NCBI GenBank assembly: GCA_000002445.1
Contig: CH464491.1
Span: forward strand, 3,904,001 to 3,968,000
DNA length: 64,000 bases
Direction: 5' to 3'
Source: Trypanosoma brucei
Taxonomy: Eukaryota
Positions 34,078 through 60,003 of the stretch are shown one piece after another (the stretch's first letter is position 1; each line of letters opens with the position of its first letter). The notes beneath the pieces are model-generated. The model did no database searches. It saw only the letters and a list, made by a program, of their open reading frames with translations, and was not told where the DNA came from. A program made the translations under genes and the position numbers.

Positions 34078-34150
34078 AGCAACTCGTCGAGTATAATCTT
34101 CAGATTACAGAAAAAAAGTGAAAAGTGAAAAGAAGCAAAATGAGAGCTTA
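34078..34150 (-). promoter_or_regulatory. Polypyrimidine tract (minus strand) upstream of Fe-SOD
   Basis: The plus strand reads cagaaaaaaagtgaaaagtgaaaagaagcaaaatgagagcttagaggg, so the minus strand is a C/T-rich run ~300 nt upstream of the ATG. Confidence 0.4.
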
Positions 34151-35446
34151 GAGGGACGCGACAGCTCCCAACAAATATAAAAATGATTTCTGCTCCTTCG
34201 TTTAATCACTTAATCTTTCTCTCCACCCCGCTCTCATTTACCCTCCTTGCCCCCTCATATCACGCGGCATAACCACCTGTCGCAAGTGCTCACTTAAGTG
34301 ATTCATGCGGGTTTCTCATCCTTCCTTCTGCTTTCCTTTTATTGTTTTCTCATCTCAATCCATTACGACCATACGATTCTTTTTCCTCCCTCAGCACATC
34401 GCAACCTTCTATAACGATTCGTTTCTCACTCTTATTTCCCCTAAATAACACCAAGAGGATTACAAAAGCATGCACGAAACAAACATAAACACAAAAATCG
34501 TCAGTTAGTCATGCATGCGCAATAAGGCACGATGAGGTGCCGTAATATAAAAGGACATGTGATCGAATCAATGAAAACGATTGAATCTAGAGAATGGAGG
34601 AGAGATGAAACGAAAAAGGAACATCCACATTGTAAACACAAAACATACAAACAAATGAAACAGGAAGTAACAGAAAAAAACAACAATAAAACGAAAAAAA
34701 ACAAACGAACAAACCACTTTCGCATATTCCTCAATTCAATCAAAACATACAAAAAACACAAAAAACTAGGTAACATTACTTCCTTCCTTTCCCATCTCTT
34801 CTACCGACGCAGCGCGCTTCCATTACCTCATATAAAGTGTTTGGAACGCATAAGAGAAAAGAGTGGGAACTAACGCCCGCAATCTGATTGAGTAAAACAA
34901 AAAAAATGAAGCAATGAAGCAAACGAAAAGAACAAAAGAAAACATTTTCAGAGGCCCGCAAGTATGAAAGAAAAACAAACAAACAGAAGTCAAATGCGGT
35001 CACCTTCGTCGCTTATGCTTCACTAAGCACCTTTTAAGCGTAAAAGAAAAGGTATGAGAAAACAAAGTCAGCAGTGCGAAAAGAAAACAAGAAACCGGAT
35101 TCACAACAAACGTTACGAACAACCAAAACTCAACACGAACTCAGAAGCAGACAAAATTCTTCTTTTTTCACCTTACAAAAGCCACCGTTAAATATAGAGG
35201 GCAGCAAAAGGAGAGAAGGAGAATTCCGAAAATGGGGCAGAAATCGAAGAACAAAAAAAATCTTCTCTTTTCTAAAAAAAAACCAAAGAAAGGGGACAAG
35301 AACAAAACATGTGGAGCAGGAGGCGATCAATAAATAGACGGAGACGGAGGAACAAAGCACAGTATTGACGACAAAATTTAGTGCACTGTCATCTTTAACT
35401 GGCGACCAAAACACTACTTATAAAAGTATTACCTTCACCTTCTTGT

Positions 35447-36046
35447 TTATTCTTTGATGAAGCCAAGTACCTGCGACATGAGGTCGTCCTTTTTGGGGCT
35501 CTTCTTGTACTTTACAGCCTCCGAAATGGCCGACTCGAGGAGCTGCACCACATTGGTTCCATCAGCTGCCGATACGTAAAACAGCGAAAGGTTATGCTTC
35601 TCCACGAACGCGAACGCCTTGTTCACGACGGATGGATCTGTATCTATCTTATTACAGGCTACAATGCATGGAATGTGCTCACGGTAGTTTCGTAACTCAC
35701 CCAACCACTTCTCCAAATTCTTATACGTCGCCTTCCGGGTGACGTCGAAAACCAAAATGCACGCATGAGCCTCGTGGTAATACGCGGGATGCATAGTGGA
35801 GAAACGCTCCTGTCCCGCCGTGTCCCAAATGTCAACATCAATTGCCTCATCATCTTCAGTAACGAAGTCATAGTGGAATAGCGTCAATGCATATGTGGAC
35901 ATTTGCACAGGCACGTATCGTTGCATCAAAAACCGCTCTACCAACTTAGACTTCCCCACAGCACTGTCACCAAGAAGGATAACTTTCACAGGTTTCCGTT
36001 CGTCATCGGGTTTATTGTCAATTAGTTTCTTCACTTTTAAGGACAT
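35447..36046 (-). CDS. RABL2: Rab-like small GTPase RABL2
   Basis: The track start at 36076 is TTG; the first ATG is at 36046 (MSLKVKK...). Strong similarity to human RABL2: 'ILLGDSAVGKSKLVERFLM', 'STYALTLF', 'DIWDTAGQERF', 'YYHEAHACILVFD', 'IPCIVACNKID', 'FYVSAADGTNVV'. Confidence 0.8.
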   Translation of the reverse strand: MSLKVKKLIDNKPDDERKPVKVILLGDSAVGKSKLVERFLMQRYVPVQMSTYALTLFHYDFVTEDDEAIDVDIWDTAGQERFSTMHPAYYHEAHACILVFDVTRKATYKNLEKWLGELRNYREHIPCIVACNKIDTDPSVVNKAFAFVEKHNLSLFYVSAADGTNVVQLLESAISEAVKYKKSPKKDDLMSQVLGFIKE

Positions 36047-36919
36047 TACAAAAAAAAAAAATGGACAAGTACGCAAGCGAAGAATGAGCTAAACCTATGA
36101 CGAGAAGAAAAGGGAGGAATAAAAAAAGAGTAAGGAATTTCATTTGGCATGCAAGTGCAGCCGGTTGTCAGTTTGGCAAAGCTTGGTGGAAGTGCACAGT
36201 TACTTCCCTTCTCCCCCTGCGCTTAGCACACCCTCCTCCAAGTAAAAGCTTCGTTCTATTCCCAACGTAAGAACACTGGGTAACCCTATCGCTCAATTCA
36301 TTTAATACCGTTATAATCATTACTATTACGAAATTGAAAAATGATTGCGGTACGAGAGATGCAACCCACAACGGGTCTTGTGGGAAAATGAATAAAATAC
36401 GATGTGAAGACGCGGTTAAACCATCAAAGTCAGCGAGAAAAGGGGGGGGCAACATTCATTTAAACAATGAGATTTCAAGCCATAGCTCTCCGTTCCTTTT
36501 GTCCTCGCCCACCCCACAGGTATAACATCAAGAATGTGCTAAATTGACGGGGGAAACATTTCCCATACACACCTTTATAACAACAACATACACGGGCTCC
36601 ACTGCATTACAAGCCAAGACGTCGCGAACAGAAACTAACCGTACTACACGGTACACAGTTACCAACAAGAAACGTACTTGAGGTGCGGATGCGCGCAGTA
36701 CATGCACGAAGCAACGTGGTGAGGTAATTGTGGAGTCTTTTTGCCCACACATGCAAAGACACCTGCTCAGCGTAACTCAGCTTCACTCACGCAGTGAATT
36801 TCGCATAGCATCTCGAGGTTATCCCTCCCCTAATCGGCCACTACATGACAGAACATCACAAATCATGGAAAGTAGGAAAGAAGTCACTTTCATCACCATC
36901 TCGTTCCCTTGTCAACTTT

Positions 36920-38704
36920 CTAAATACCCTTCATTTGAAACTTCATCGGAGGTGCCAGAGCTGGGAGGGGCGCCTGCGACTCGTTCACACGTTTCCGCAT
37001 GGTGTTCAGCCCCTCACGCTTTTCCTTGTCTTCCAACCCCCTGTCTTCAATGCGGCTTTCCTTCGCGAGCACATCCTTTTCCACAACTGCAGCCTCCGTC
37101 GTAATCATCATTCCAGCCACTGAACACGCATTTACTACCGCTGATTTTACAACTTTCATTGGATCAATTATACCCTCGTTAAACATGTTCACGTACTCGC
37201 CTGTCTGCGCATTGTATCCGAACGTTGGGTCATTCCTTCTCATAATTTTACTCGCCACAACACTTCCTTCCACACCCGCATTACTCGCAATGTAACGACA
37301 GGGCAAGCGGACAGCCCTTTTCACTATATTAACGCCCGTGCGGATATCTGGAGGCAAACTGCGGTCCTTCGCCACGCTGTCAAGCCGCACTGATGCAACG
37401 AGCAAAGCTGTACCACCGCCAGCAAGAATTCCCTCCGCTACCGCTGCACGCGTGGCGTTAAGGGCATCAACAATACGATCTTTTTTCTCACTGATCTCAA
37501 CTTCGGAGGCACCGCCAACTTTAATTACTGCAACACCTCCAGACAACTTAGCAAGCCGCTCTACCAAGCGCTCGCGGTTGTACTCGTGATCTTCCGCTGC
37601 AATCATATCACGGATCATCTGAACGCGCTCTTCCACCGCGATGGCACTTCCACCACCCTCCATTAAAATGCATTCATCACGCGATATTGTAGCTTTCTTA
37701 CATGATCCAAGCAACCGCTCCGAAAAATCACTTTGGTCGAGACTTAACCCCAAATCCTCTGAAATCATCTGCGCACCGGTGAATACTGCAATATCCTGTA
37801 GTTGATTAATTCGCATATCACCGAACCCAGGAGCTTTCACTGAGCAGCCTGTTATTCTTCCTTGAATTTTGTTATAGAGGAATGTATGCATTGCTTCTCC
37901 CTCCAAATCCTCGGAAATAACAAGGAGTGGTCTCTTCTTTTGGATGGCATGGTTCAGTGCGGGAAGAATGTGGGCAACACTGGACAACTTACGGTTTGCA
38001 ACAAACACTAGTGCATTCTCCAATTCGCACTTCTGTGACTTGGTGTTCGTTACAAAATATGGTGATGTGAATCCCCGCTCGAAGGACATTCCCTCCACGA
38101 GTTCCAACTCCGTGTTCAACGAGCGGCCCTCCTGCGTAGTGATGACACCATCCTTACCAACCTGCTGCATGGCATCACCAATGAGCGCTCCAATTTCAAC
38201 GTCCATATTAGCCGATATCATTGCTATCTGCGTTACCTCCGATTTGGAGGTGACGGGCTTCGCCTGCTCAGCCAATGAAGCGAGTACCTCGCGGCAGGCC
38301 AAGTCAATCCCACGTTTCAAGTCCATTGGATTCGTACCCGTAGAAACACTACGGAACCCTTCTCGAAATATAGCTCCAGAGAGAATTGTTGCAGTGGTCG
38401 TTCCGTCACCAGCTGTATCATTTGTGAGGCCAGCCACCTGCCGCACGAGGTTGGCACCCAGATTTTCAAAGCTGTTCTCAAACTCAATGTGCTTCGCTAC
38501 TGTCACGCCATCCTTTGTTATCTTCGGACTAGCATATGGCATCTCCAATACGACATTACGTCCTTTCGGCCCCAATGTAACACCGACCGCCTTCACAAGA
38601 TTCTCCACACCAAGCAAAAGTAGCTTACGGGCCTCGATGCCGTAACGAATGTCCTTCGGCGTCGAGCCGTACTGCATGCAACAAGCGAAGGAGCGCCTCA
38701 GCAT
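36920..38704 (-). CDS. HSP60: Chaperonin HSP60/GroEL family, divergent paralogue (mitochondrial)
   Basis: 594 aa with ATG verified. GroEL hallmarks: 'GPKGRNVVLE', 'PKITKDGVTVAK', 'AGDGTTTATIL', 'GGVAVIKVGGASEVE', 'DALNATRAAVAEGI', plus the C-terminal ATPase core. It is clearly diverged from the canonical trypanosomatid HSP60 N-terminus, so it is called a paralogue. Confidence 0.9.
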   Translation of the reverse strand: MLRRSFACCMQYGSTPKDIRYGIEARKLLLLGVENLVKAVGVTLGPKGRNVVLEMPYASPKITKDGVTVAKHIEFENSFENLGANLVRQVAGLTNDTAGDGTTTATILSGAIFREGFRSVSTGTNPMDLKRGIDLACREVLASLAEQAKPVTSKSEVTQIAMISANMDVEIGALIGDAMQQVGKDGVITTQEGRSLNTELELVEGMSFERGFTSPYFVTNTKSQKCELENALVFVANRKLSSVAHILPALNHAIQKKRPLLVISEDLEGEAMHTFLYNKIQGRITGCSVKAPGFGDMRINQLQDIAVFTGAQMISEDLGLSLDQSDFSERLLGSCKKATISRDECILMEGGGSAIAVEERVQMIRDMIAAEDHEYNRERLVERLAKLSGGVAVIKVGGASEVEISEKKDRIVDALNATRAAVAEGILAGGGTALLVASVRLDSVAKDRSLPPDIRTGVNIVKRAVRLPCRYIASNAGVEGSVVASKIMRRNDPTFGYNAQTGEYVNMFNEGIIDPMKVVKSAVVNACSVAGMMITTEAAVVEKDVLAKESRIEDRGLEDKEKREGLNTMRKRVNESQAPLPALAPPMKFQMKGI

Positions 38705-41126: not shown

Positions 41127-41525
41127 TCATCGACCACGCTTCACCTGACCCGTTGGCAGGAGTGGCACCAAATGTCCCATCCCACCAGCCTTCAGTGCGG
41201 TTTTTATGTCATTAGCGGAAAGCGTTACCCTTCGCCTCGACTCACGAGAGTGTTCGTCATCTGCAAGACATGAAAGGTACAGAAGCGATATTGTTGCGGC
41301 CTTCTGCATCGCTATGCGCGCGTCGCGAGCAACATGCATACCAGCGGGCACAGCGGCAGCAACGATGCGGTCCACTTGCCCGGCCGCCAAACTACGAGCT
41401 TTTACAGCGGAGTTTTGTGCAGTTGGAGAGGGAAGAGGAGCCGCATCAATATCTGCTATGGTGCCTTGAGTGTCGCTCGCCTTCACTAAGTCACCAGCTA
41501 AATCCATTCGTCCTTGTCCTTTCAT
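41127..41525 (-). CDS. Histone-fold protein, NC2beta(Dr1)/NF-YB-like (~132 aa)
   Basis: The track start at 41597 is GTG; the first ATG is at 41525 (MKGQGRM...). 'IVAAAVPAGMHVARDARIAMQKAATISLLYLSCLADDEHSRESRRRVTLSANDIKTAL' aligns with the Dr1 histone fold '[56 protein letters not shown]'. Confidence 0.45.
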   Translation of the reverse strand: MKGQGRMDLAGDLVKASDTQGTIADIDAAPLPSPTAQNSAVKARSLAAGQVDRIVAAAVPAGMHVARDARIAMQKAATISLLYLSCLADDEHSRESRRRVTLSANDIKTALKAGGMGHLVPLLPTGQVKRGR

Positions 41526-41737
41526 GAGTCCATGTAAAGCCGCAGTTGTAGAAAGAAGGAGGGCATATGAACTCGAAACATCATCAACAAAACGCACACA
41601 AGCGAATACGACAAAACAATGGCAAAGAGCAATTCAAAGATACGTACGCAAACATGGTGCTGCAACCGTACGAACAAAAAGTAAAGTAGTCACGAACAAG
41701 GTTTGATTAATGAAGGGAAGAAACAAGAAAGATTCAA

Positions 41738-47873: not shown

Positions 47874-49715
47874 TTTATAACTGGAAAAAAAAATATGCGG
47901 AAGGGGAAAAAAGAATAGAATTGTTGAAGGAAGCCCACTGTGAATAGGTGCAACTCACGTCCACAGGCAAAAGCAAAAAAAAAACTTTGGCACCAAAATG
48001 GGTGAGTACAAATGTGCATGCCGGTCAGCGACTCACCATTACCAGGCATCGACGGAACCGGCAATCGTTGCAATCTGCAAACTGCGATGCCAGTCGTTAG
48101 GGGTACAATGGTAACATAATTCCTGCTCATTCCCTTGTGGTGCTATGGAGAATGTCATAATGAAGAGACGCCCGCTTGAATTCTTCTCCAATAAAAATGA
48201 GGTGTGGGGATTACAAAAGGAACAGTAGCGGTAGCACCCCATACTACAAGACCTTTTCTGCTGGTAAGACAAATTGTCCAACACCCACCAAACTCCATAA
48301 GTTGAGGGCATGGAGGAGCAAAAAAACCTCAAAAAAAAACAAACCTCACATCCTGGATCTGGTGTAGGCGAGTTGGTAATACGGTGAACTTACGGGACTA
48401 CAAATAGGACAGAAAAACGTGTCAATGGGAAGTGCGCTACATGCACAAACAGATTCCCCACCGATGGGTATTGAACGCCTTTGAACCGCTACTACATTTG
48501 AAAACTCCACAAGATCAATAGTAACTGGACAATATGCATGGTTAGGAGGTTGAGGAAGTGTCGCCCACAGGGAAGCACACTCAAAGGCACAAGGTTTGAG
48601 ACCGGAGGACGCAAGTGGTTCCCCTCCATGTCCAATTTTGTAGCAGAGTCTGCCCACAATACTGAGCACATTGTACTCCAAAGGTTCCGATAAAATAAAG
48701 TCACAACTTACACAAAGTGATCTGTGTGCCGTTCGTCAAGGGTAAACAGTTCTCTTCATTTTCGGTGCTGCACATGCCGTTGGTGGAAAGCCGTCAGAAA
48801 ACAAAAGAAGGGGAAATTGCCTCCACACAAAGAATCTTTCTCCACTCACATGGAACTCAAATCACTTTCTGGACTACGGTTGATCCATAAAGACGTTAAC
48901 TGCGGAGCCACAGTGCACTACTTTGGATACACACTGCATGGTTACCATTTATCAACTGAAAAGTCTTCCTTTACAAGAATACCTTCAGAAAAAAAAGTGA
49001 AATTAAGCGATAGGATGGCGGAAGGTGAAAATACCATAGGATCAGCTGTCAACAAAGACGCCACCTACTACACTATGTTCATACTGGTGGAAATTTCATC
49101 TACTTGTGAGGTAAAGAGACGCATTGAAGTAATACATCGATGTACAAGTTTGACAAAAAACTCAAAATACATCCGCTCCCCGCTTGCACTTTTCCCTTTC
49201 GTTATCGGTTCCCTAAAAAGCGGTAAACGTTGGATTGTTTTTGAAATACAACGAAGACACACACCATTTCCTTTGTTTCCTATAACTCATTATTTACATG
49301 TGCCAACTGCAGCAATCGGTTACAAAAATTCACTTGGTTAAGCTATACATAGTAGCTCGTAACATACAAAAAACATCAAAACGGTCCAATTGGACGACTA
49401 ACTACGACACACAAACGTGCTCTCCTTCAACCATATCAAAATGAAAACCCAGCGAAAAAAGATTCAGCAGCATCCCATGCTTCTCCAACGTCATAGTTTT
49501 GTGAGGTACACTAAAAAGAAAATCGTAGAAATTACACATCAGAATATATTTCGCTTTGTCCTTTCAATGAAACGAATGAACCCAGAACGTCGCACATCAG
49601 CATATGCAGCTGAATGGGACAAGAACGCCTTATCACAGAAAAGTCACAGATAAAGTCACATAGCATATAATGAGTAATTCTCACATACTTCCTACTTCCT
49701 CAACAATATTCCTTC

Positions 49716-52700
49716 TTACGCATCACCCTCACCAGTTGGTTGTTCGGTGGCATCTTCAGCCTGTTCTCCTGGTTGTTCAGTGGCATCTTCAGCTTGTTCA
49801 GCTGGTTGTTCAGTGGCATCTTCAACACCTTCAGCAGCAACTTGTTCGCCAGCATCTTCACTTGCAGGCTTCTTTGGAGAAGACCCAGTTGATGCCTCCT
49901 TGGGAATATCAGCCTCATCAAGTTCTTCATGCTCATCTGTTTGCTCAGCTGCAGTTTCTTGAGCAACCTCCTCGGCTGGTTGTTCAGTGGCATCTTCAGC
50001 TTGTTCAGCTGGTTGTTCAGTGGCATCTTCAACACCTTCAGCAGCAACTTGTTCGCCAGCATCTTCACTTGCAGGCTTCTTTGGAGAAGACCCAGTTGAT
50101 GCCTCTTTGGGAATATCAGCCTCATCAAGTTCTTCATGCTCATCTGTTTGCTCAGCTGCAGTTTCTTGAGCAACCTCCTCGGCTGGTTGTTCAGTGGCAT
50201 CCTCAGCCTGTTCAGCTGGTTGTTCAGTGGTATCTTCAGCTTGTTCTCCTGGTTGTTCGGTGGCATCTTCCGCCTCCTCAGCTGGTTGTTCAGTGGTATC
50301 TTCAGCTTGTTCAGTTGGTTGTTCAGTGGTATCTTCCGCCTCCTCAGCTGGTTGTTCAGTGGTATCTTCAGCTTGTTCAGCTGGTTGTTCAGTGGTATCT
50401 TCAACACCTTCAGCAGCAACTTGTTCGCCAGCATCTTCACTTGCAGGCTTCTTTGGAGAAGACCCAGTTGATGCCTCTTTGGGAATATCAGCCTCATCAA
50501 GTTCTTCATGCTCATCTGGTTGTTCAGTGGCATCCTCAGCCTGTTCAGCTGGTTGTTCAGTGGCATCTTCAGCTTGTTCAGTTGGTTGTTCAGTGGTATC
50601 TTCCGCCTCCTCAGCTGGTTGTTCAGTGGTATCTTCAGCTTGTTCAGCTGGTTGTTCAGTGGTATCTTCAGCTTGTTCTCCTGGTTGTTCAGTGGTATCT
50701 TCAGCCTGTTCAGCTGATTGTTCAGTGGCATCTTCAGCCTGTTCAGCTGGTTGTTCAGTGGCATCTTCAACACCTTCAGCAGCAACTTGTTCGCCGGCAT
50801 CTTCACTTGCAGGCTTCTTTGGAGAAGACCCAGTTGATGCCTCTTTGGGAATATCAGCCTCATCAAGTTCTTCATGCTCATCTGGTTGTTCAGTGGCATC
50901 CTCAGCCTGTTCAGCTGGTTGTTCAGTGGCATCTTCAGCTTGTTCAGTTGGTTGTTCAGTGGTATCTTCCGCCTCCTCAGCTGGTTGTTCAGTGGTATCT
51001 TCAGCTTGTTCAGCTGGTTGTTCAGTGGTATCTTCAGCTTGTTCTCCTGGTTGTTCAGTGGTATCTTCAGCCTGTTCAGCTGATTGTTCAGTGGCATCTT
51101 CAGCCTGTTCAGCTGGTTGTTCAGTGGCATCTTCAACACCTTCAGCAGCAACTTGTTCGCCGGCATCTTCACTTGCAGGCTTCTTTGGAGAAGACCCAGT
51201 TGATGCCTCCTTGGGAATATCAGCCTCATCAAGTTCTTCATGCTCATCTGTTTGCTCAGCTGCAGTTTCCTGAGCAACCTCCTCAGCTGGTTGTTCAGTG
51301 GTATCTTCAGCCTGTTCAGCTGATTGTTCAGTGGCATCTTCAACACCTTCAGCAGCAACTTGTTCGCCGGCATCTTCACTTGCAGGCTTCTTTGGAGAAG
51401 ACCCAGTTGATGCCTCTTTGGGAATATCAGCCTCATCAAGTTCTTCATGCTCAGCTGGTTGTTCAGTGGCATCCTCAGCCTGTTCAGCTGATTGTTCAGT
51501 GGCATCTTCAACACCTTCAGCAGCAACTTGTTCGCCAGCATCTTCACTTGCAGGCTTCTTTGGAGAAGACCCAGTTGATGCCTCTTTGGGAATATCAGCC
51601 TCATCAAGTTCTTCATGCTCATCTGTTTGCTCAGCTGCAGTTTCCTGAGCAACCTCCTCAGCTGGTTGTTCAGTGGCATCTTCAGCCTGTTCAGCTGGTT
51701 GTTCAGTGGCATCTTCAACACCTTCAGCAGCAACTTGTTCGCCGGCATCTTCACTTGCAGGCTTCTTTGGAGAAGACCCAGTTGATGCCTCCTTGGGAAT
51801 ATCAGCCTCATCAAGTTCTTCATGCTCAGCTGGTTGTTCAGTGGCATCCTCAGCCTGTTCAGCTGATTGTTCAGTGGCATCTTCAACACCTTCAGCAGCA
51901 ACTTGTTCGCCAGCATCTTCACTTGCAGGCTTCTTTGGAGAAGACCCAGTTGATGCCTCTTTGGGAATATCAGCCTCATCAAGTTCTTCATGCTCATCTG
52001 TTTGCTCAGCTGCAGTTTCCTGAGCAACCTCCTCAGCTGGTTGTTCAGTGGCATCTTCAGCCTGTTCAGCTGGTTGTTCAGTGGCATCTTCAACACCTTC
52101 AGCAGCAACTTGTTCGCCGGCATCTTCACTTGCAGGCTTCTTTGGAGAAGACCCAGTTGATGCCTCCTTGGGAATATCAGCCTCATCAAGCTCCTCATGC
52201 TCTTCAACCTCCTGTCTAGGTGTCACCGATCGTGACGACTCAGCCGACGACTCATGAACAGGCGGGTACTTGTTGGCCTCTCTTGCTTTAGCCTCCGCAG
52301 CCTCCCTTATCTTCTCTGGTAAGCACGTCAACATGCGCATCAGTGGAGTGCAGCTGGTTCCATGCCACGCTATCGTCGCGGTAAGCTTACCATATGGTCC
52401 ATATGATTCTCGTGTACACTCGAGAGTCTTCTCCCAAAGCTCCTTTTGCTCTTCCTCCTCAATGAAATACCGTTCTGCTGTCTCGCACCGACTCGTTGAA
52501 TACAACCGTACGCCGTACATATCAAACAACCAGCGGAGCATACATTTCCATTCCTCCAGCTCCTCCGCCTCAACGACAGCACGGGAGTCTAGGTGCTCTT
52601 CCTCGAAAGTTTTTTCTTTAACAGGGCCTTTGGTACGTTCAACGCACTGACGGCGGAAGAACTCAGGTGGAGCGTAGCGAAAGACGCCACGTCGGATGAC

Positions 52701-53234
52701 GACACGCTGGTCTGCCTCAGTTTGCTGTATGCGTTCACGGACCTCATTCTCATGATCAACGAGTTGACGTAGACACACCAGCAAAAACCACGAATGCGAA
52801 CATTCCTTTTCAACTTTCTCACGGAGGCGATGCTCGACACCACTGAGCCACGTTCGCAACTCTTCTTCCTCCTTTAACAGCGTGAAGTACTTCGCCCGTG
52901 GAAAGGCACGGATGAGTGGCTGCTGCCGCACCAATGGATTTTGTTGACGCTGCCTTATCAACTCTAGGTTGGTTTGCCTCATGCCCAGCGTAATTAAACG
53001 TGTGAGACTCGGCTCGAATTTTAGAGTCGGGTTACGCTCGATTTCTTTCCTCTCGGCAATCATCACACCTCGTTCATGCATAAGATCAGCGAGTGCGTGG
53101 CTTAACTGTTCTTCAATAGCCTTTCGCTCCCCTGTCTCCTCACGGCACAAACGCAGCAGTAACTCATGGTGAGTTGGAACGCGTGAAACAAGAGAGTTAT
53201 AGTAATCGGCAAAGTTCTTGTGGACAACGGCCAT
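49716..53234 (-). CDS. Highly acidic tandem-repeat protein: unique N-terminal domain (~330 aa) followed by ~10 nested repeats
   Basis: 1172-aa minus ORF with ATG verified. The N-terminal domain is non-repetitive (MAVVHKNFADYYNSLVSRVPTHHELLLRL...). From about residue 330 it carries ~10 copies of the 37-aa core 'EHEELDEADIPKEASTGSSPKKPASEDAGEQVAAEGV'. Each core is followed by 2-9 copies of an 11-aa unit 'EDxTEQPxEQA' (33 nt) and often by 'EEVAQETAAEQTD'. Nucleotide periods of 33, 240, 366 and 375 nt are visible. Confidence 0.7.
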   Translation of the reverse strand: MAVVHKNFADYYNSLVSRVPTHHELLLRLCREETGERKAIEEQLSHALADLMHERGVMIAERKEIERNPTLKFEPSLTRLITLGMRQTNLELIRQRQQNPLVRQQPLIRAFPRAKYFTLLKEEEELRTWLSGVEHRLREKVEKECSHSWFLLVCLRQLVDHENEVRERIQQTEADQRVVIRRGVFRYAPPEFFRRQCVERTKGPVKEKTFEEEHLDSRAVVEAEELEEWKCMLRWLFDMYGVRLYSTSRCETAERYFIEEEEQKELWEKTLECTRESYGPYGKLTATIAWHGTSCTPLMRMLTCLPEKIREAAEAKAREANKYPPVHESSAESSRSVTPRQEVEEHEELDEADIPKEASTGSSPKKPASEDAGEQVAAEGVEDATEQPAEQAEDATEQPAEEVAQETAAEQTDEHEELDEADIPKEASTGSSPKKPASEDAGEQVAAEGVEDATEQSAEQAEDATEQPAEHEELDEADIPKEASTGSSPKKPASEDAGEQVAAEGVEDATEQPAEQAEDATEQPAEEVAQETAAEQTDEHEELDEADIPKEASTGSSPKKPASEDAGEQVAAEGVEDATEQSAEQAEDATEQPAEHEELDEADIPKEASTGSSPKKPASEDAGEQVAAEGVEDATEQSAEQAEDTTEQPAEEVAQETAAEQTDEHEELDEADIPKEASTGSSPKKPASEDAGEQVAAEGVEDATEQPAEQAEDATEQSAEQAEDTTEQPGEQAEDTTEQPAEQAEDTTEQPAEEAEDTTEQPTEQAEDATEQPAEQAEDATEQPDEHEELDEADIPKEASTGSSPKKPASEDAGEQVAAEGVEDATEQPAEQAEDATEQSAEQAEDTTEQPGEQAEDTTEQPAEQAEDTTEQPAEEAEDTTEQPTEQAEDATEQPAEQAEDATEQPDEHEELDEADIPKEASTGSSPKKPASEDAGEQVAAEGVEDTTEQPAEQAEDTTEQPAEEAEDTTEQPTEQAEDTTEQPAEEAEDATEQPGEQAEDTTEQPAEQAEDATEQPAEEVAQETAAEQTDEHEELDEADIPKEASTGSSPKKPASEDAGEQVAAEGVEDATEQPAEQAEDATEQPAEEVAQETAAEQTDEHEELDEADIPKEASTGSSPKKPASEDAGEQVAAEGVEDATEQPAEQAEDATEQPGEQAEDATEQPTGEGDA
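49730..52230. repeat. Nested tandem repeat array (33-nt subunit; 240-375-nt higher-order units; near-identical copies)
   Basis: Direct reading: 'gctggttgttcagtggcatcttcagcctgttca' recurs with 33-nt phase. The identical plus-frame ORFs 50508..50717 and 50874..51083 (366 nt apart), and 51298..51648 versus 51673..52023 (375 nt apart), show higher-order units copied at nucleotide level. Confidence 0.9.
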
Positions 53235-54598
53235 GTCTCCGCTTTACTTGATGTAATACCGAATAATAAAAAAACTGCAGTGGGTAAGTAGAGAAGTGGT
53301 AGTCCGACAACGCCCTTTTTTTTTCTCCCTCTTTCTTTGGTTTCCTCAAGAATAAGTGTTCTTCGTGAGCGGCCCCCAACCCGTATTGCCACGTGCGTGG
53401 TATATGATCAATGCTTGTTTTTGCTTCGCCACTCTCTTCCTTTTTTTGAATGTTACTCTTTAGTCAATACAATAAGAAGATTTTTAAAATTTTTTCTGTC
53501 TCTGCTCTCTTTACACTCCTGGAAATAAAGTGTGTTTGAAGCAAGGGAGTCAACCGCAAGGCAGAATTATTGTTAACAAGTTACAGCATGCAGAATAAGT
53601 TTGGTGCAGCAGCGACGCGGATATAAAAATTAAGACGCGTTATTTTAAATGAAAACAGAAGTAAATTGATAAGGAGAAAAACAGTTGGCGTGAGCCTCCT
53701 TCGGGCAGCGGGGACGGTACAAAATATACAAGTAAATCATGAACGTTTGCACGAAAGGGAGAAGAAGCCATGCCACATGCACACCTTTAACTTATTTTCA
53801 CTCTTTCGCTGTTTCCCTTTCTTCCTTCCATGTTGAGAGAACATTCCCAGAAACTCGCTAGTTTTCATAAACTACAAATATATAAACAAACATATATATA
53901 TGTGTGTGTGTTACGTGTGCTTGCTCTCGACAAAATAAGACAAATCATTGTGTATCACTTTACACGTACGTATGTGCCTTAAACCCTCTCCCCACACCTC
54001 AAGGCACCGCAGCAAAATGCCGCAGAAGGTCAGGGAGGTAAGCGCATTTAAAAGGTAAATGGGACAAGCAACATCCTGCTCCAGTCGCAAAAAGATAGAA
54101 GTTTGACAATTAATACAGAACAAACGAAAACAAAACCAAGGTATAAAAAATGGATCCCAACACTTCCGAAATAAACTCCTTTTACCGTTCAGCCGCTGTG
54201 CTCTGCAGAGCATTGACGACCAAACCGTTACTGTGGTGAACAGTACTTCGACCTCCACCCCTTCTCCAAATGAACTTACCAGTCTGTGAAGAACCCGCAC
54301 GCACAACGCGGGGGGAGGGAGGGGGAGGGGGAAATGCCCCTTCCTTTTGTTTATGTGTCCCTCATGTGGATCACAAAGAAACAAAAAAGAAAGAGGGACG
54401 ATTGGGGTACATACGTCTCCTGCCTTTATCAATATGCACCCAGTCGGAATCGTCTACAACTCATACACATTTCCGATACCTCCATTATGCGCCATTATGC
54501 GTCCCTATGCAGCATGTACGCACCCCCTCCGAATGCGGCTCACTGCATGCACTCGCGCATCCGACAGTAGTGGCGCACACTCAATTTAAATTCTCTCA

Positions 54599-56386
54599 TT
54601 AATTAAGGGGGTTTAAATGTCGCATACACCGCGGTTGCGCAGCGAAGCTAAGACTAGAGAGACGAAAGTTAAGTGGGTCCAGCGACAATTGCTCGACGTC
54701 CCAACCAACCGCTTGAAGAGACTTCCTCAATTCGCCTCCTCGCTTCAACCAAAGCGACTGTTCCCCGTTGCAGGAACGAAGGAAACGACGAAGTTCCGCT
54801 AAATCATCGGCATGTTGTAGCAGTGCAGTGTACGCAAGAAGGTACGCAGTCAGCAGATGCAATGAATCGCACTCCTGATGGACGAAAAGCACCAACCGCT
54901 TGCCCAACACTTCAGATGTAGGAACATTTTTCTTCTTTGAGAAAAACCACTTACTGATTCGTTGTGTCAGCTGTGGTTTTTCCCATCGATGCCAGCGGTC
55001 CAGAAGTGATAGGGGGGCAGAAGGCTCCCAAAGGGCAAAAAGAAACATTTCTGAGGAACACAAGTACACAACATCTTCATCGAGAGAAGAGTACCGAATG
55101 CGGATCTTTCCGATTGGTGGATTTACGTAGAGAAGCCCTATGCGGTCGTTACCATCGGATCTCCCTCTGTCTATCATCCGGAGTCCAATGGCATCACTTA
55201 CCTCCCGTGGCGATAATACACGTCCCCTCTGGTGACCCTCCTCTCGCATGTAGAAGCGAAGGATCACGGAGAGGGTAGTTTCATTCAATATGCGAAAGGC
55301 TATATTACACATGGACAAATGAGAAATCGCTAAATTTGCACCACAGCACATAAGCACCGTAGCAAGTTGGGCCGTCACCGATGGTACTAAAGATGTGTAT
55401 GCAATTCCCAGTGCCGTTGAGACGGTGTAGATAACCATTCCAAAAGAGTTGAACTTCTTCGTGAGTTCCGCCAGGTTGTTACTGATGGCGAAGTGTTGCA
55501 GAGCGGAGGCTCTCGTCACCAAAAACATAAGCGACGCCGACTGCCGCACACACGAGGTTAGGATTGCGGCTGCAAGCAGATGATTTGGTACTGTTGTCGG
55601 AATAATCATCTCAGCTATGACGGAGAGATTGTGCAGCGCTACAGAAAAAACAAACCAAAACTTCGGCCTGTTTTCGTACGATATGACGCGATTTGCCAAA
55701 TACGCAGCGGCTAGGGCGGGGGCAAGATCTTTCAGCATCCATAGTTGTGGTGAAGATGCAAGTAAAAATCCATTAAGAATCGACTGATATCCAATTGATG
55801 AAGCAAAACTCGATACAAAGCTGCTACACAGGGAAAGAAGAAAATACCGTCTAAACCCCTCTCCACACGAATCAGGATACCCTGCAGGCATCCCAAATAA
55901 GTGCAAACGCTGCAAAAGCGACTCATTGCGCCGTGATGCAAGCCTAACTTCGAGAGGATGTGCGACCACAGTCTCCCACGAATAATTTACGTTACATTGC
56001 GAAAAACCAAGCTCGGATGGCGTGAGTGAAACCTCCCTTTTCTGTTTGTTGGAGTGGTTATACGAAGTGACTACAGAGGCATGAGATGAGTATCCCCCTT
56101 TGGTACCATCCCTAGGGGAAATAACAATCCGTTGTGACTGCGGTTCACACGGAAATGAAGTGTCAGTTACGCAAGAGGCCACTGCTCGACTTCTGTTACT
56201 GCGTATACCCCCATTCAGCGGCGCCATATGACGTATCCGCAACAATGTTGGGCCCACATAATGGTTAGACGCGTGACGGCGCACCGTCCCACACAGACTG
56301 CAGGCAACCAAACGCATCATTAAACCTGTGAGTGTAAGCGCACAAGGAAAAAAAAGTGTGTATGTGTGTACACTGTGACGATACAT
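54599..56386 (-). CDS. Hypothetical polytopic membrane protein (~595 aa)
   Basis: The track start at 56416 is GTG; the first ATG is at 56386. It has multiple hydrophobic helices in the C-terminal half ('FWFVFSVALHNLSVIAEMII', 'LLAAAILTSCV', 'VIYTVSTALGIAYTSLV', 'LATVLMCCGANLAISHL'). Confidence 0.5.
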   Translation of the reverse strand: MYRHSVHTYTLFFPCALTLTGLMMRLVACSLCGTVRRHASNHYVGPTLLRIRHMAPLNGGIRSNRSRAVASCVTDTSFPCEPQSQRIVISPRDGTKGGYSSHASVVTSYNHSNKQKREVSLTPSELGFSQCNVNYSWETVVAHPLEVRLASRRNESLLQRLHLFGMPAGYPDSCGEGFRRYFLLSLCSSFVSSFASSIGYQSILNGFLLASSPQLWMLKDLAPALAAAYLANRVISYENRPKFWFVFSVALHNLSVIAEMIIPTTVPNHLLAAAILTSCVRQSASLMFLVTRASALQHFAISNNLAELTKKFNSFGMVIYTVSTALGIAYTSLVPSVTAQLATVLMCCGANLAISHLSMCNIAFRILNETTLSVILRFYMREEGHQRGRVLSPREVSDAIGLRMIDRGRSDGNDRIGLLYVNPPIGKIRIRYSSLDEDVVYLCSSEMFLFALWEPSAPLSLLDRWHRWEKPQLTQRISKWFFSKKKNVPTSEVLGKRLVLFVHQECDSLHLLTAYLLAYTALLQHADDLAELRRFLRSCNGEQSLWLKRGGELRKSLQAVGWDVEQLSLDPLNFRLSSLSFAAQPRCMRHLNPLN

Positions 56387-57540
56387 GAGGGAGCAGTGTG
56401 TCTCCACGTAAAACACATAATAGTATTACGTTTGACAAATGAACAGGAGGGAAAAATAATGAGAAAGGCAGGCGAAGACATATGGCGTCGTAACCCTCCC
56501 TCCAAAAACCGAAACTCGCATCTTCTAATCACTACATCTGAACCCGCAACAACTCAGCCCGGACAAAATGTATCTTAAAAGCCTCCCTCCCTCCTTTTGT
56601 CTCCTATTTGCATGTATCATCGTTCCGTTACTTCTTTTCTTCCTTCGGAGGTCATTCATCATAAAAATGTGTCCCAACCTGTTTAAGTAACAAGTTCACG
56701 TTATTTTTATGTTTCTCCCCTTCCCCTCCCTCCGTCGCACACCAAGGTTTCTTCACACGAACATTCATGCTCATGTGAAAATACAATAACATCCTCCCCC
56801 AACAAAAAAAAAACAACAAAAAATACACCGCAGCAGCCACTAAAACAGTTGTATACATGTGTGCATGGCACACCATTGTACCTGCAATTGAAAGGGAAAA
56901 GGAGGAAGCTCATGAACGCGTCCGATTGAGGCCTTTAAGTGGGAAACGGAACGGTCCCCGTTTTCGTTCTGCAACTCTAATTAAAACAGCACAAACTGTC
57001 GCGGGTGTCATTGGTCGTGGCAAACACAACAAAAATTAAAAAAAACAGAACAAAAAAAACCGTTCGGACTCCAGACAAAAAAAAATGACAGTAGTATTGA
57101 ATAGAGTGAAGATACCCTTGTGGTTCCCTCTCCTATCTTTGACATAGCCGTCATGCCGAACGCAGTGGCGTTACATTTGTCAAACTGAACGGATTGTTTG
57201 GGATCAATAAACCGAATCAAAAATAACAGTGAGAAACTAATCGAGGTAAGCACAGAGCAGGAATACATCGGTGCGGGTGAGGTAAGTAAAGGCCCTGAAT
57301 GCGGCACGAGAAACGAAAAAGAAAAAGCCCAGCAGCAGCACTGCACAAAAAGCAACTGCCATAGACGAATTGGAGCATAACGCACATTGCAAAAATTGTA
57401 CAACGAAAATCATATAACAGAGAAAGAAAAAAAACATCGAACAAACATCATTCCCACCAAACCAAACTATTCTTTACACAGTTTTCTACCTTCCTACCCC
57501 GTCAGATTTTATTCTACTCTACATTTTGTGTTATTTGAAC

Positions 57541-57831: not shown

Positions 57832-60003
57832 CTAAAAATCTAGCCAGCTGGCACCTTCATCTTCTTTCGCGGGGGGATCTTCGGATTCACCTGCAACCTT
57901 CTCATTATCGTTCGGCGCGGCTCCATTATTTCCGGATGACCCTGAATCTCTATGTGTATCCGTTCCGCCACCTGTAGAAGCCACGATTTCAGACGAGCTC
58001 TTTTCCCCTGCTTCACCTGGCAAAGCGGTTTCACTGGTTTCCGAGTAATCATCAGCGTTTTTCCTGGAGGCCGAATACGATTTCGGGGCGTCCTCATCGT
58101 AGTCATCCCTTTGGCTCGCATACTCGTCAGACCCCTGTCCATCCGTCTGTTTGGAACTTTTGCTCTTCGCCGAATCACCGCCATCTCCCCCCGCCGACTC
58201 CCCTGTTGCTTTCACGCCTCCAGGTGCAACGTCATCGACCGAGCCGCGTTTTCGGGGCTGCGAGTTATTACGAGCCGCACTCTGAGGAGTTTCATCACTA
58301 AGCAACTGAGAAGTTGTGTTGCTCCTTCGAGCTTCGTCTACCCGCCGCTTGACTTCACCCAGCGGGTCATACACCTTTGCACCCGGTTTTCCGCCCCCGT
58401 TATCGGTATTAGAACTGCGTTGGTTACCTTCGTTTGACCCTATCCTTGGGGACGGATCCCCACCCCTCTGTTCGAGGTTCCGCGCCACATCACCCCGAGG
58501 AGTTGTAAAGCTCTTGTCCACAGGTTCACGTGTTGGTGAGTTAGCAGTCTTTTGCCGATCAGCCTTTGAGGTCAAACGGTATATTTCGTCCCTCAATTCT
58601 CTTATTTTTGCTACATAGTATGCACGAGATTCCTTGTCGTGCCGGCTTCCCACCCTTCCACCACTAGAGTCAGACATATCTCCCCGACTCTTGGCTTTGA
58701 GGCGAGAAAGCTGCTTGTGCAGTTCGCAAATAGTTTCTGCCTTCCATCGGTATTCCTCGAACAAAGTCCGTGTGCCTTCATCGAGATCGGTGGGGGGTTC
58801 CCATTCCTTGGCTTCACGTACCTGTTCCTCCAACCTTTCCACACGTTTCTGAGTATCCTTCCGCATCCTTATTGCCGAAACGGCGTCTCGACGCCGATGA
58901 TCAAGTATTCGCCGCGCAAGTACCGAGTTGGCACGTATTTCATCAGCTAGCTGCTTAAACACCTTTTTCGGATCCCCCGTTTCGGAGGTGTTTACCAACA
59001 ACTTTTCGTTACTCCGTATGGACAGCAACAATGCGCGGCGCTCTTTGCTAAGCTCTGCAATGTCATTCTTGCACTCTTGAATAAGTTTGACGTACACGTG
59101 CATTTGCTTAATGCAATAAACCTTCCTTTGCAGAAAGCATTGCCGTTCAAGAAGCTCATCTCTCTCCCTCAGTAATTCACGTCGGGTGCCCTCGCGACTC
59201 AACATCCGCTGGAAACTAGCAGCGGCGGGTCTTTGGTATTGTTTCCACATTGTCCTGTTTTGGGAGCGACATAAAGTAGTATTCCTTCCCTTTTGAAGAA
59301 TTGAACGTTGTGCTTCCAACTTCAAACGAAGTTGATCATTTAACAAAAGAAGGTCGTTAAGTTCCTCTTTGGTAGACACAGAGGTAACCTGCTGGTCAGC
59401 CATCGCGTAGGCCGCTCCACGGGTTTGCCCAGTCTCGGCAGAGGGTCGTGTGGTCGGTTTACTGTCGCTGCCTGCGTTAGAATCATCACCAGCGCTCCGT
59501 GCGTGTGGTACGACATGTTTTTTCACCTCTGGACGCTTCTTCGGGGGAGTGTCACTTGAAGCAGACGAACTACCCCCATCGTCAGAAGACTCGTGGTCGC
59601 TGGAATCGTCTTTTCTCCTTGAGCTAAGGTAAGTTCCAGTGCCATTTTTGCCACTTCGCCGCCGACCTTCACCGGATCTATTACTTCCAGATGAACCCGA
59701 CCCACTGCCCCTTCTACTACCAGAGGCACTCGACGCGCCGCTCTTGTCACTGCCTTCGGAAGCAGCCAACACGCTGCTCTTCCTTCTGCTTGTGGAGACA
59801 TCCGATTCCGTGTATTTTTTACCGCTGTCCGACTTGTCTGACCCACCGCTCCCTTTACTCGACCCTGATGATGCACTCGACGCACTTCGAGAGCCATTCT
59901 TGCTTTCATCATACTCATCTTCGTAATCATCACCGTTAGAGGATCCACTTCCAGACCTCTTCGAGGAGCTATCACTCTCACTCCCTGACTCTGATGAGCT
60001 CAT
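57832..60003 (-). CDS. Hypothetical protein, 723 aa: Ser/Gly/Asp-rich low-complexity N-terminal ~270 aa, then coiled-coil-like region
   Basis: ATG verified. The N-terminus is 'MSSSESGSESDSSSKRSGSGSSNGDDYEDEYDE...', which looks like a phospho-acceptor-rich region. The central region has heptad-like charged runs (ELLRERDELLERQ..., ERLEEQVREAKE). Confidence 0.55.
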   Translation of the reverse strand: MSSSESGSESDSSSKRSGSGSSNGDDYEDEYDESKNGSRSASSASSGSSKGSGGSDKSDSGKKYTESDVSTSRRKSSVLAASEGSDKSGASSASGSRRGSGSGSSGSNRSGEGRRRSGKNGTGTYLSSRRKDDSSDHESSDDGGSSSASSDTPPKKRPEVKKHVVPHARSAGDDSNAGSDSKPTTRPSAETGQTRGAAYAMADQQVTSVSTKEELNDLLLLNDQLRLKLEAQRSILQKGRNTTLCRSQNRTMWKQYQRPAAASFQRMLSREGTRRELLRERDELLERQCFLQRKVYCIKQMHVYVKLIQECKNDIAELSKERRALLLSIRSNEKLLVNTSETGDPKKVFKQLADEIRANSVLARRILDHRRRDAVSAIRMRKDTQKRVERLEEQVREAKEWEPPTDLDEGTRTLFEEYRWKAETICELHKQLSRLKAKSRGDMSDSSGGRVGSRHDKESRAYYVAKIRELRDEIYRLTSKADRQKTANSPTREPVDKSFTTPRGDVARNLEQRGGDPSPRIGSNEGNQRSSNTDNGGGKPGAKVYDPLGEVKRRVDEARRSNTTSQLLSDETPQSAARNNSQPRKRGSVDDVAPGGVKATGESAGGDGGDSAKSKSSKQTDGQGSDEYASQRDDYDEDAPKSYSASRKNADDYSETSETALPGEAGEKSSSEIVASTGGGTDTHRDSGSSGNNGAAPNDNEKVAGESEDPPAKEDEGASWLDF

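What the first reader, a model, noticed from the sequence alone, without database searches (positions are those of the whole stretch)
49716..53234. Gene for an extremely acidic protein with a nested, variable-length tandem repeat array
After a ~330-aa unique N-terminal domain, the protein consists of ~10 copies of a 37-aa core (EHEELDEADIPKEASTGSSPKKPASEDAGEQVAAEGV). Each core is followed by a variable number (2-9) of 11-aa EDxTEQPxEQA subrepeats and an optional 13-aa tail. Copies are near-identical at the DNA level, with whole 366-375-nt units duplicated exactly, which implies ongoing concerted evolution or unequal crossing-over and probably a collapsed or variable copy number in the assembly. 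Such Glu/Asp/Pro-rich repeat proteins in trypanosomatids are typically cytoskeleton- or flagellum-associated and often immunodominant, but this particular repeat was not recognised. The unique N-terminal domain (RLCREETGERKAIEEQLSHALADLMHERG...) is the place to look for homology.
Basis: seen in the sequence. Interest (0 to 1): 0.65.

Follow-up and report, generated by a model that had tools for sequence, protein, structure and literature searches.

The report
Known trypanosome flagellar rod protein Tb5.20/ROD1
The acidic repeat gene is real, but it is the already-described Trypanosoma brucei paraflagellar-rod protein Tb5.20/ROD1 (Tb927.11.15100), a stable part of the outer layer of the rod beside the flagellar axoneme, so the finding is correct but not new.

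Summary
Window 49716-53234(-) is one 1172-aa ORF: a 344-aa unique N-terminus, then 10 identical 37-aa cores, each followed by 2-8 copies of an 11-aa ED[AT]TEQxxExA sub-repeat and sometimes a 12-aa tail. Exact DNA repeats reach 413 nt. The protein has pI 4.05 and net charge -258.

The gene is not unknown. Published CRISPR-tagging primers and the sgRNA for Tb927.11.15100 match the start codon and 5' flank exactly. PUF7 (Tb11.01.6600) primers match an ORF about 14 genes downstream. So this is Tb11.01.6740 = Tb5.20 = Rod1, cloned in 1994. Published work places it in the distal/outer PFR domain and shows it is PFR2-dependent, immobile in FRAP and lost from bloodstream-form RNAi libraries. Its mRNA is the top G2/M-peaking transcript in bloodstream forms. 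The 11-aa motif was reported in 2009.

New here:
- The array is rearranged in T. b. gambiense DAL972 (8 cores, 938 aa).
- The roughly 305-aa N-terminal module is a kinetoplastid-wide, all-helical family with no Pfam entry. Syntenic tail-less orthologues of about 300 aa exist.
- Acidic tails are lineage-specific add-ons.
- The earlier MEME-level PFR-domain and EF-hand claims are not reproduced by Pfam.

Verdict: already known, low interest.

The parts
49716..53234 (-). Complete CDS of Tb927.11.15100 (Tb11.01.6740; Tb5.20 / Rod1), 1172 aa plus stop codon
   Evidence: The ORF is listed. The published primer Tb927.11.15100_Ntag_check_R is the reverse complement of CDS nt 1-30 and matches 53205-53234 with 0 mismatches.
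52320..53234 (-). Conserved N-terminal 'Rod1 module' (aa 1 to about 305), all-helical, kinetoplastid-wide, with no Pfam family
   Evidence: It is 44-47% identical to T. rangeli, T. theileri and T. c. marinkellei proteins. A profile search finds 40 relatives. AF2 with 30 sequences gives pLDDT 79 and helices at 22-67, 113-187 and 210-291. Pfam gives no hit.
52203..52319 (-). Non-conserved linker (aa 306-344) between the helical module and the array
   Evidence: The alignment loses conservation after about aa 305. AF2 pLDDT is below 50 from residue 305.
49719..52202 (-). Nested acidic repeat array (aa 345-1172): 10 units, each a 37-aa core plus 2-8 sub-repeats of 11 aa with or without a 12-aa tail; 10 SPKK motifs; net charge -255
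51453..52202 (-). Units 1-4, forming two copies of a 375-nt super-unit (207 + 168 nt); units 2 and 4 are identical
   Evidence: One search shows a 398-nt exact repeat at offset 375. Units 1 and 3 differ by 2 mismatches, and units 2 and 4 by none.
50514..51245 (-). Units 6 and 7: two 366-nt units with 8 sub-repeats each, differing at 1 nt
   Evidence: One search shows a 413-nt exact repeat at offset 366.
50142..50513 (-). Unit 8 (372 nt, 7 sub-repeats plus tail)
53242..53291 (-). 5' flank carrying the published sgRNA target (53242-53261) and the 30-nt homology arm (53262-53291) used to tag Tb927.11.15100 at its N-terminus
   Evidence: Both match exactly.
49670..52219 (+). Shadow ORF (849 aa) on the opposite strand, an artefact of the stop-free repeat and not a gene
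   Evidence: Its translation is a Q/L/V/W-rich repeat with no unique or conserved part. The minus-strand frame is validated by orthologues and primers.

Best explanation
The ORF is the Trypanosoma brucei gene Tb927.11.15100 (old ID Tb11.01.6740). It encodes Tb5.20/Rod1, a stable structural protein of the distal (outer) domain of the paraflagellar rod (PFR).

Shown by sequence here plus published experiments: the gene's identity, its flagellar/PFR outer-domain location, its detergent resistance, the lack of FRAP turnover, its dependence on PFR2 and PFC21, and its assembly after the inner domain.

Inferred mechanism: the conserved, roughly 305-aa all-helical N-terminal module is the ancestral part. 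It builds the protein into the coiled-coil-like PFR lattice, because syntenic orthologues in distant kinetoplastids consist of this module alone. The 828-aa C-terminal array is a lineage-specific, intrinsically disordered polyanion. I think it acts as a charged projection or spacer ('brush') within or on the distal lattice. Its 10 SPKK motifs are candidate proline-directed phosphorylation sites.

The array evolves by in-frame unequal recombination and slippage between 33-nt and 168-375-nt repeats, which gives length variants between T. brucei subspecies. I put the identity at about 0.97, the claim that the N-module is the anchor at about 0.6, and the claim that the tail is a polyanionic spacer at about 0.4.
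For: Identity:
- Three published oligonucleotides for Tb927.11.15100 (eLife 2023, PMC10212563) match the start codon and 5' flank with 0 mismatches.
- PUF7 (Tb11.01.6600) RNAi primers from PMC2855960 match the PUF ORF at 16265-18379. That ORF is about 14 genes downstream, which fits Tb11.01.6740.
- The neighbouring RUS gene is 99% identical to T. b. gambiense, and its T. congolense orthologue carries a chromosome 11 gene ID (TCIL3000_11_15270).

Published function:
- Tb5.20 is the repetitive PFR protein Tb11.01.6740. Antisera to it label like mAb ROD1, on the distal domain and on 180/200 kDa bands (PMC2813431).
- Its abundance falls by log2 -1.94 on PFR2 RNAi, and an 11-aa motif occurs 53 times (PMC2645819).
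- Rod1::mCherry is an outer-domain marker, shows no FRAP recovery, arrives after inner-domain proteins and is mislocalised in the PFC21 knockout (bioRxiv 10.1101/2024.04.19.590284).
- The ROD1 mAb is described as recognising Tb5.20 (PMC7272336).
- RIT-seq representation is 0.00 at days 3 and 6 in bloodstream forms (PMC3332058).
- The mRNA is the top G2/M-peaking transcript, and the tagged protein is in the old and new flagella.

Mechanism:
- AF2 predicts three long helices with high local confidence but low global confidence, pLDDT 79 and pTM 0.26.
- A 40-member family is matched over the full module.
- The 301-aa tail-less member P0068 has the same downstream gene block as the window: TCP1-like, Ras GTPase, Fe-SOD, kinase+PH.
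- Tails are acidic in all Trypanosoma orthologues, yet their repeat sequences are unrelated.
- All 4 variable sites in the cores are synonymous.
- DAL972 has 8 cores and 23 sub-repeats by HMM, against 10 and 38 here, and its junctions sit at GAAGATGCC.
Against: - In what I could read, no experiment separates the roles of the N-module and the tail.
- AF2 gives no confident tertiary or quaternary model.
- The protein is absent from PDB chain sequences, so there is no structural placement.
- Portman & Gull 2010 stated that it was still unknown whether Tb5.20 is the actual ROD1 mAb antigen. Later papers treat it as such without a proof that I saw.
- No phosphopeptide from the SPKK core turned up in the one phosphoproteome supplement I could search.
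- Leishmania-type orthologues have only mildly acidic tails, and three unnamed long orthologues have neutral S/P-rich tails. Strong acidity is therefore not universal.
Confidence: 0.85

Rival explanations
1. The acidic array is mainly a calcium (cation) binding or buffering element of the PFR, as suggested by the earlier report of an EF-hand-like motif in Tb5.20.
For: Portman et al. [quoted passage not shown] A later review lists it among possible flagellar Ca2+-binding proteins. The PFR contains calmodulin and other EF-hand proteins. The array has 285 Asp/Glu in 828 residues.
Against: Pfam hmmscan finds no EF-hand in the full protein at E up to 1, nor in any of 30 family N-modules at E up to 10. 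The repeats contain no DxDxDG-type loop. They are Glu/Ala/Gln/Thr/Pro-rich and look disordered. Orthologue tails differ completely in sequence, and some are neutral.
Confidence: 0.15
2. The repeats matter mainly as an immunodominant B-cell antigen, a decoy released from lysed parasites, and have little role inside the flagellum.
For: Tb5.20 was isolated by immunoscreening with anti-cytoskeleton sera. According to Portman 2009, the related motif is also found in TbI2, a PFR antigen identified with serum from infected cattle. Tandem repeats are classic trypanosomatid antigens; this last point rests on my own knowledge.
Against: The protein is internal to the flagellum. The antisera used were raised by immunising with extracted cytoskeletons, not by infection. 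Acidic repeat tails also occur in T. theileri, T. melophagium and T. rangeli. Variation in the cores is purely synonymous. RNAi is strongly deleterious in culture, where there is no immune system.
Confidence: 0.1
3. The particular unit order and copy number in the window is an assembly artefact (collapsed or mis-joined repeats), so the nested architecture is not the true allele.
For: Exact repeats of about 400 nt are present. Orthologous arrays break the T. theileri and T. rangeli assemblies. DAL972 shows a different arrangement. The apparent size on blots, 180/200 kDa, exceeds the predicted 128 kDa.
Against: The window has no Ns and the reading frame is intact. My count of 53 11-mer-like modules equals the 53 reported for the reference gene in 2009, although my count was made after I knew that number. 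Very acidic disordered proteins normally run 1.3-1.6 times too large on SDS-PAGE (my own knowledge), which would account for about 180-200 kDa. The flanks are collinear with DAL972, with 2 and 5 mismatches in 400 nt.
Confidence: 0.15

Closest known systems
Tb5.20 / ROD1 antigen (Tb11.01.6740 = Tb927.11.15100; Woodward, Carden & Gull 1994; Woods et al. 1989)
   Same: It is the same gene. Published primers and sgRNA match exactly, the chromosomal position relative to PUF7 fits, and both have a repetitive 11-aa motif and an acidic repeat protein.
   Different: Nothing essential differs. The window adds the exact nested unit map. The T. b. gambiense DAL972 allele differs in array structure, with 938 aa and 8 cores.
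TbI2 and PFC9 (Tb11.01.6510), other PFR proteins reported to carry the same 11-aa 'meme2' motif
   Same: According to Portman et al. 2009, the motif occurs 53 times in Tb5.20, 10 times in PFC9 and 19 times in TbI2, and all three are PFR proteins.
   Different: I could not retrieve their sequences, so the similarity is untested here. Neither the repeat nor the N-module has another copy in this window.
PFR1/PFR2 family (Pfam PF05149, paraflagellar rod protein)
   Same: Both are helical, coiled-coil-like structural PFR proteins. A MEME-level PFR-domain match in Tb5.20 was reported in 2009.
   Different: No PF05149 hit appears for the full protein or for any of 30 family members. The N-module forms a separate family with no Pfam entry.
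Neurofilament NF-M/NF-H side-arms and MAP projection domains (analogy only, from my own knowledge)
   Same: Both combine a helical domain built into a filament or lattice with a long, Glu-rich, repetitive, disordered tail carrying repeated Ser-Pro-Lys phosphorylation motifs, which acts as a charged spacer.
   Different: There is no homology. It is not shown that the Rod1 tail is phosphorylated or sets any spacing.
Trypanosomatid tandem-repeat cytoskeletal and flagellar antigens (e.g. MARP, GM6, T. cruzi FRA; from my own knowledge)
   Same: All are large intracellular cytoskeletal proteins with near-identical tandem repeats that evolve by concerted evolution and are often antigenic.
   Different: The repeat sequences are unrelated. 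Rod1's two-level nested array and its conserved tail-less orthologues are specific to it.

Membership tests
Tb5.20 / Rod1 (Tb927.11.15100) | The sequence at the start codon and 5' flank equals the published gene-specific tagging oligonucleotides | tested here: met
   The 30-nt check primer, the 30-nt homology arm and the 20-nt sgRNA all match with 0 mismatches at 53205-53291.
Tb5.20 / Rod1 (Tb927.11.15100) | The chromosomal position corresponds to Tb11.01.6740 on T. brucei chromosome 11 | tested here: met
   PUF7 (Tb11.01.6600) primers match the ORF at 16265-18379. The target lies about 14 gene models upstream of it in the same transcription unit. The neighbouring gene is 99% identical to T. 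b. gambiense chromosome 11.
Tb5.20 / Rod1 (Tb927.11.15100) | Repetitive protein with a variable 11-aa motif repeated many times (53 reported) | tested here: met
   An HMM finds 38 clear copies. Adding 10 core-embedded EDAGEQVAAEGV modules and 5 EVAQETAAEQTD modules gives 53, though I made this count after knowing the published number.
Tb5.20 / Rod1 (Tb927.11.15100) | Localises to the distal/outer domain of the paraflagellar rod | not testable with these tools
   Published evidence only: immunogold and tagging data.
Paraflagellar rod protein domain (Pfam PF05149; PFR1/PFR2/PFR5/PAR1) | A significant match to the PF05149 profile | tested here: not met
   There is no hit at E up to 1 for the full protein, and none at E up to 10 for 30 family N-modules.
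EF-hand calcium-binding proteins (Pfam PF00036 and relatives) | A match to the EF-hand loop-helix profile | tested here: not met
   There is no EF-hand family hit. The 2009 claim rested on a MEME motif.
Rod1 N-terminal module family (uncatalogued, kinetoplastid-wide) | A full-length match to the roughly 305-aa helical module with the invariant residues R31, E33, R37, D50, E123, R127, W129, E251 and R255 | tested here: met
   The window sequence heads alignment A3, in which these nine residues are invariant across 30 sequences. 40 proteins score at E up to 1e-3, and 22 at E up to 1e-30.
Rod1 N-terminal module family (uncatalogued, kinetoplastid-wide) | Conserved genomic neighbourhood (orthology rather than paralogy) | tested here: met
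   The order DnaJ, x, x, RUS, Rod1 is shared with T. theileri, T. rangeli and DAL972. Leishmania LSCM4_02871 lies next to the RUS gene LSCM4_02872. The P0068 contig shares the downstream block TCP1-like, Ras, SOD, kinase+PH.
Trypanosomatid tandem-repeat B-cell antigens | Recognised by sera of infected hosts | not testable with these tools
   The only published evidence I found is isolation with sera raised against extracted cytoskeletons.

The most novel reading that the evidence does not exclude
The roughly 305-aa helical 'Rod1 module' may be an ancient, uncatalogued building block of the kinetoplastid PFR distal lattice. The Trypanosoma-specific polyanionic array, with its 10 SPKK motifs, would then be a tunable, phosphorylatable brush. 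Its length polymorphism between alleles and strains would explain the classic 180/200 kDa ROD1 doublet and would modulate the mechanics or ion environment of the distal domain, and hence motility.
Probability: 0.2. Interest if true: 0.45.

Novelty: already known. Interest (0 to 1): 0.2.

Why it matters
For a genome scan, the main result is that this striking repeat gene is already explained. It encodes a long-known marker protein of the trypanosome paraflagellar rod, and reagents (mAb ROD1, tagged lines) and phenotypes already exist.

Three smaller points have some value. First, the Lister 427 gene model is still labelled 'hypothetical protein', and a 2023 paper did not recognise it as Tb5.20, so annotation transfer is incomplete. 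Second, the conserved N-terminal module has no Pfam family, although it is found across kinetoplastids and has syntenic tail-less orthologues; this gives a clean hypothesis for which part anchors the protein in the PFR. Third, the array differs between T. brucei subspecies, so it could serve as a length-polymorphic marker. It is also a caution for short-read assemblies and for RNAi or CRISPR designs that target the repeats.

Tried and rejected
- Pfam on the full protein and the N-terminus gave nothing except a sub-threshold 'Mucin-like' hit.
- A PDB sequence profile search gave nothing.
- AF2 with 4 sequences was unusable, with pLDDT 44.
- The word-indexed homologue search returned only 3 hits, even with a 30-sequence profile, and missed the T. 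brucei, T. congolense and Leishmania orthologues.
- An exact-protein look-up found nothing on record.
- A literature search for the repeat peptides found nothing.
- A search for SPKK-core peptides in the Benz & Urbaniak 2019 phosphoproteome supplements found nothing, and the Nett 2009 supplements are not held. Phosphorylation therefore remains untested.
- General literature searches on acidic repeat proteins and tandem-repeat antigens were unproductive.
- My first attempts to derive the gene ID from remembered ID offsets and from a guessed SMN anchor failed. The ID came instead from primer sequences printed in papers.
- I rejected the plus-strand 849-aa ORF and the alternative minus-strand frame, because they are shadow ORFs of the repeat.
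- I rejected the idea that the short family members of about 300 aa are paralogues, because P0068 is syntenic.
Full report
**1. Observation**

The window is 46.6% G+C, and every ORF of 250 aa or more outside the repeat region lies on the minus strand, as expected for a trypanosomatid polycistronic unit. At exactly 49716-53234(-) there is a 1172-aa ORF. Decomposition gives a 344-aa unique N-terminus followed by 10 copies of the 37-aa core EHEELDEADIPKEASTGSSPKKPASEDAGEQVAAEGV, all identical in protein sequence. Each core is followed by 2-8 copies of an 11-aa unit ED[AT]TEQxxE[QE]A, the last one truncated. In five units the 12-aa tail EVAQETAAEQTD follows.

At DNA level the ten cores differ at four sites only, all synonymous third positions. 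Units 2 and 4 are identical, and units 6 and 7 differ at 1 of 366 nt. The longest exact repeats are 413 and 398 nt. TRF scores approach 3000, and no other array in the window scores above 150. The protein is predicted at 127.9 kDa with pI 4.05 and net charge -258.

The core's last 12 residues (EDAGEQVAAEGV) are a diverged copy of the 11-mer with one extra codon. The array therefore has at least three nested levels: 33 nt, 168-372 nt and 375 nt.

**2. Which organism and which gene**

The adjacent RUS/UVB-sensitive family gene (54599-56416) is 99% identical to the T. brucei gambiense DAL972 protein, and its T. congolense orthologue carries a chromosome 11 gene ID (TCIL3000_11_15270).

A PUF-repeat ORF at 16265-18379 contains both RNAi primers published for TbPUF7 = Tb11.01.6600 (PMC2855960). 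Counting gene models upstream from PUF7 suggested an ID near Tb11.01.674x / Tb927.11.151xx.

A literature search for those IDs led to the key-resources table of Briggs et al. 2023 (PMC10212563). Its primer Tb927.11.15100_Ntag_check_R is the reverse complement of ATGGCCGTTGTCCACAAGAACTTTGCCGAT, which encodes M-A-V-V-H-K-N-F-A-D. That primer, the 5' homology arm and the sgRNA all match the window with no mismatch at 53205-53291. The ORF is therefore Tb927.11.15100.

Portman & Gull 2010 (PMC2813431) state that the repetitive PFR protein 5.20 of Woodward et al. 1994 is Tb11.01.6740. The CTR9 paper lists 'Tb927.11.15100 Paraflagellar rod Tb5.20'. Gabriel et al. 2024 call Tb927.11.15100 'Rod1'.

**3. 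What is already known (from the papers, not from my analysis)**

- mAb ROD1 labels the distal PFR domain and recognises bands of 180 and 200 kDa. Antisera to clone 5.20 behave the same way.
- Tb5.20 belongs to the PFR2-dependent cohort, with log2 -1.94 after PFR2 RNAi. MEME found an 11-aa motif 53 times in Tb5.20, 10 times in PFC9 and 19 times in TbI2.
- Rod1::mCherry is used as the outer-domain marker and shows no recovery after photobleaching. It enters the new flagellum after inner-domain proteins and is disrupted in PFC21 null cells. Orthologues are reported only in species with a full-size PFR.
- ROD1 signal is weakened in PFR-AF1 and PFR-AF2 mutants.
- In RIT-seq the gene's representation falls to 0.00 at days 3 and 6 in bloodstream forms.
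- In single-cell RNA-seq the Lister 427 copy (Tb427_110169500, annotated 'hypothetical protein') is the most significant G2/M-peaking transcript. The N-terminally tagged protein is in both the old and new flagella.

**4. What the present analysis adds**

(a) Variation between strains. In T. b. gambiense DAL972 the syntenic gene (L003:13164-15980) encodes 938 aa. Its N-terminus differs at 5 of 1032 nt (one amino acid), and the flanks are almost identical. The array, however, has 8 cores and 23 HMM-detected sub-repeats, against 10 and 38 here. It also contains free EDAGEQVAAEGV modules and three cores truncated by an exact 36-nt in-frame deletion between two GAAGATGCC repeats. This is the signature of unequal recombination or slippage. 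Assembly collapse in one or both genomes cannot be excluded.

(b) Orthologues. The word-indexed search found only T. rangeli, T. theileri and T. cruzi marinkellei proteins at 44-47% identity. All are 'hypothetical' and all lie in the same gene order, DnaJ, x, x, RUS, Rod1. The T. theileri gene is interrupted by an N-gap within its own repeats, and the T. rangeli contig ends inside the gene.

The exhaustive profile search found 40 relatives. They include T. melophagium (858 aa, EKEEQKS-type repeats), T. congolense (partial, AAEEP-type 5-aa repeats) and Leishmania spp. (472 aa, next to the RUS gene). A set of proteins of about 300-400 aa consists of the module alone. One of these, the 301-aa P0068, lies on a compact metagenomic contig whose downstream genes (TCP1-like, Ras-type GTPase, Fe-SOD, kinase+PH) repeat the order found in the window. 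It is therefore a syntenic orthologue.

The ancestral protein is thus the helical module, and the tails are later, lineage-specific additions. Tails are strongly acidic in all Trypanosoma (net -0.14 to -0.30 per residue), mildly acidic in Leishmania-like sequences and neutral S/P-rich in three unnamed long sequences.

(d) Earlier domain claims. The MEME-based reports of a PFR domain (PF05149) and an EF-hand in Tb5.20 are not reproduced by Pfam HMMs on the full protein or on 30 family members.

(e) SPKK motifs. Each core contains SSPKK, which fits the S/T-P-x-K proline-directed kinase consensus (my own knowledge), giving 10 sites in all. I found no phosphopeptide evidence.

**5. How it most likely works**

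Shown: the protein is a stable, detergent-resistant component of the outer PFR domain, and it is needed for fitness in bloodstream forms.

Inferred: the N-terminal helical module integrates into the lattice. It is the only part shared by all orthologues, and it looks like a coiled-coil-type subunit. The 828-residue polyanionic array appears disordered from its composition and acts as a charged projection or spacer. Purifying selection on the core peptide is suggested by the fact that all variation is synonymous, while copy number drifts by recombination.

The 180/200 kDa doublet could reflect the anomalous migration of a 128-kDa polyanion together with two allelic array lengths, but this is untested. 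Rivals are a cation/Ca2+ buffer, an immunodominant decoy and an assembly artefact of the unit order. They are listed with evidence in the rival explanations.

**6. Comparison and verdict**

This is not a relative of a known protein. It is the known protein Tb5.20/Rod1. Functionally it resembles neurofilament side-arm or MAP projection architectures, by analogy only. It fails the tests for the PF05149 and EF-hand families.

Novelty: already known. Interest is low (0.2). The residual value lies in the uncatalogued N-terminal family, the array polymorphism between subspecies and the annotation gap in the 427 genome.

Noticed in passing
window 16265-18379 (-): This PUF/NOP9-like ORF is TbPUF7 (Tb11.01.6600). 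Both published RNAi primers match it exactly.
   Followed up: yes
window 30726-38704 (-) and L007:4872-10441: The gene block TCP1-like chaperonin, Ras-type GTPase, Fe-superoxide dismutase, protein kinase with C-terminal PH domain is in the same order in T. brucei and on a compact JGI metagenomic contig (3300062191) that also carries a tail-less Rod1 orthologue. The contig has two SOD copies and very short intergenic spacers. Its organism is unknown, probably a distant kinetoplastid.
   Followed up: partly
L001:11809-12413 and the end of L002: The T. theileri Rod1 orthologue is interrupted by a run of about 600 N inside its own acidic repeats. The T. rangeli contig ends within the gene. Both are annotated 'partial', so repeat tails in this orthogroup are systematically under-assembled.
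   Followed up: yes
window 49670-52219 (+), 49700-52207 (-), 50194-51273 (+): Long stop-free shadow ORFs (849, 835 and 359 aa) are generated by the repeat in other frames and on the other strand. They could be mis-called as genes.
   Followed up: yes
window 49716-53234 (annotation issue): The Lister 427 copy (Tb427_110169500) is described as a 'hypothetical protein' in a 2023 paper that tagged it and saw flagellar signal. The paper makes no link to Tb5.20/ROD1, so the name has not propagated between strain annotations.
   Followed up: yes
window 50001-52000: AT skew drops to -0.352 there, against roughly -0.09 to +0.25 in most other 2-kb bins (next lowest -0.212 at 58001-60000). This is a compositional signature of the A-rich coding strand of the array.
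   Followed up: no
P0047, P0048, P0049 (Logan assemblies): Three long family members (747-885 aa) carry neutral Ser/Pro/Gly-rich tails rather than acidic ones. Their taxon is unknown, and they show that tail chemistry is not conserved across the family.
   Followed up: partly
window 41127-41597 (-): This 156-aa ORF has a weak histone-fold (CBFD_NFYB_HMF) match, E 4e-4 and 21.0 bits, against a cut-off of 21.4.
   Followed up: no
window 11412-13031 (-): This 539-aa ORF has a partial SpoU rRNA methylase match (E 2e-9).
   Followed up: no
alignment A3 members: Two family members give marginal hits to Pfam DUF1663 (best E 0.0039). I did not interpret them, and they are probably compositional.
   Followed up: no
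tool behaviour (versus 28, 32): The word-indexed protein search missed the T. melophagium, T. congolense and Leishmania orthologues, although these are present in the underlying collection. Only the exhaustive HMMER search found them. No T. brucei copy of the protein was returned by any search.
   Followed up: partly
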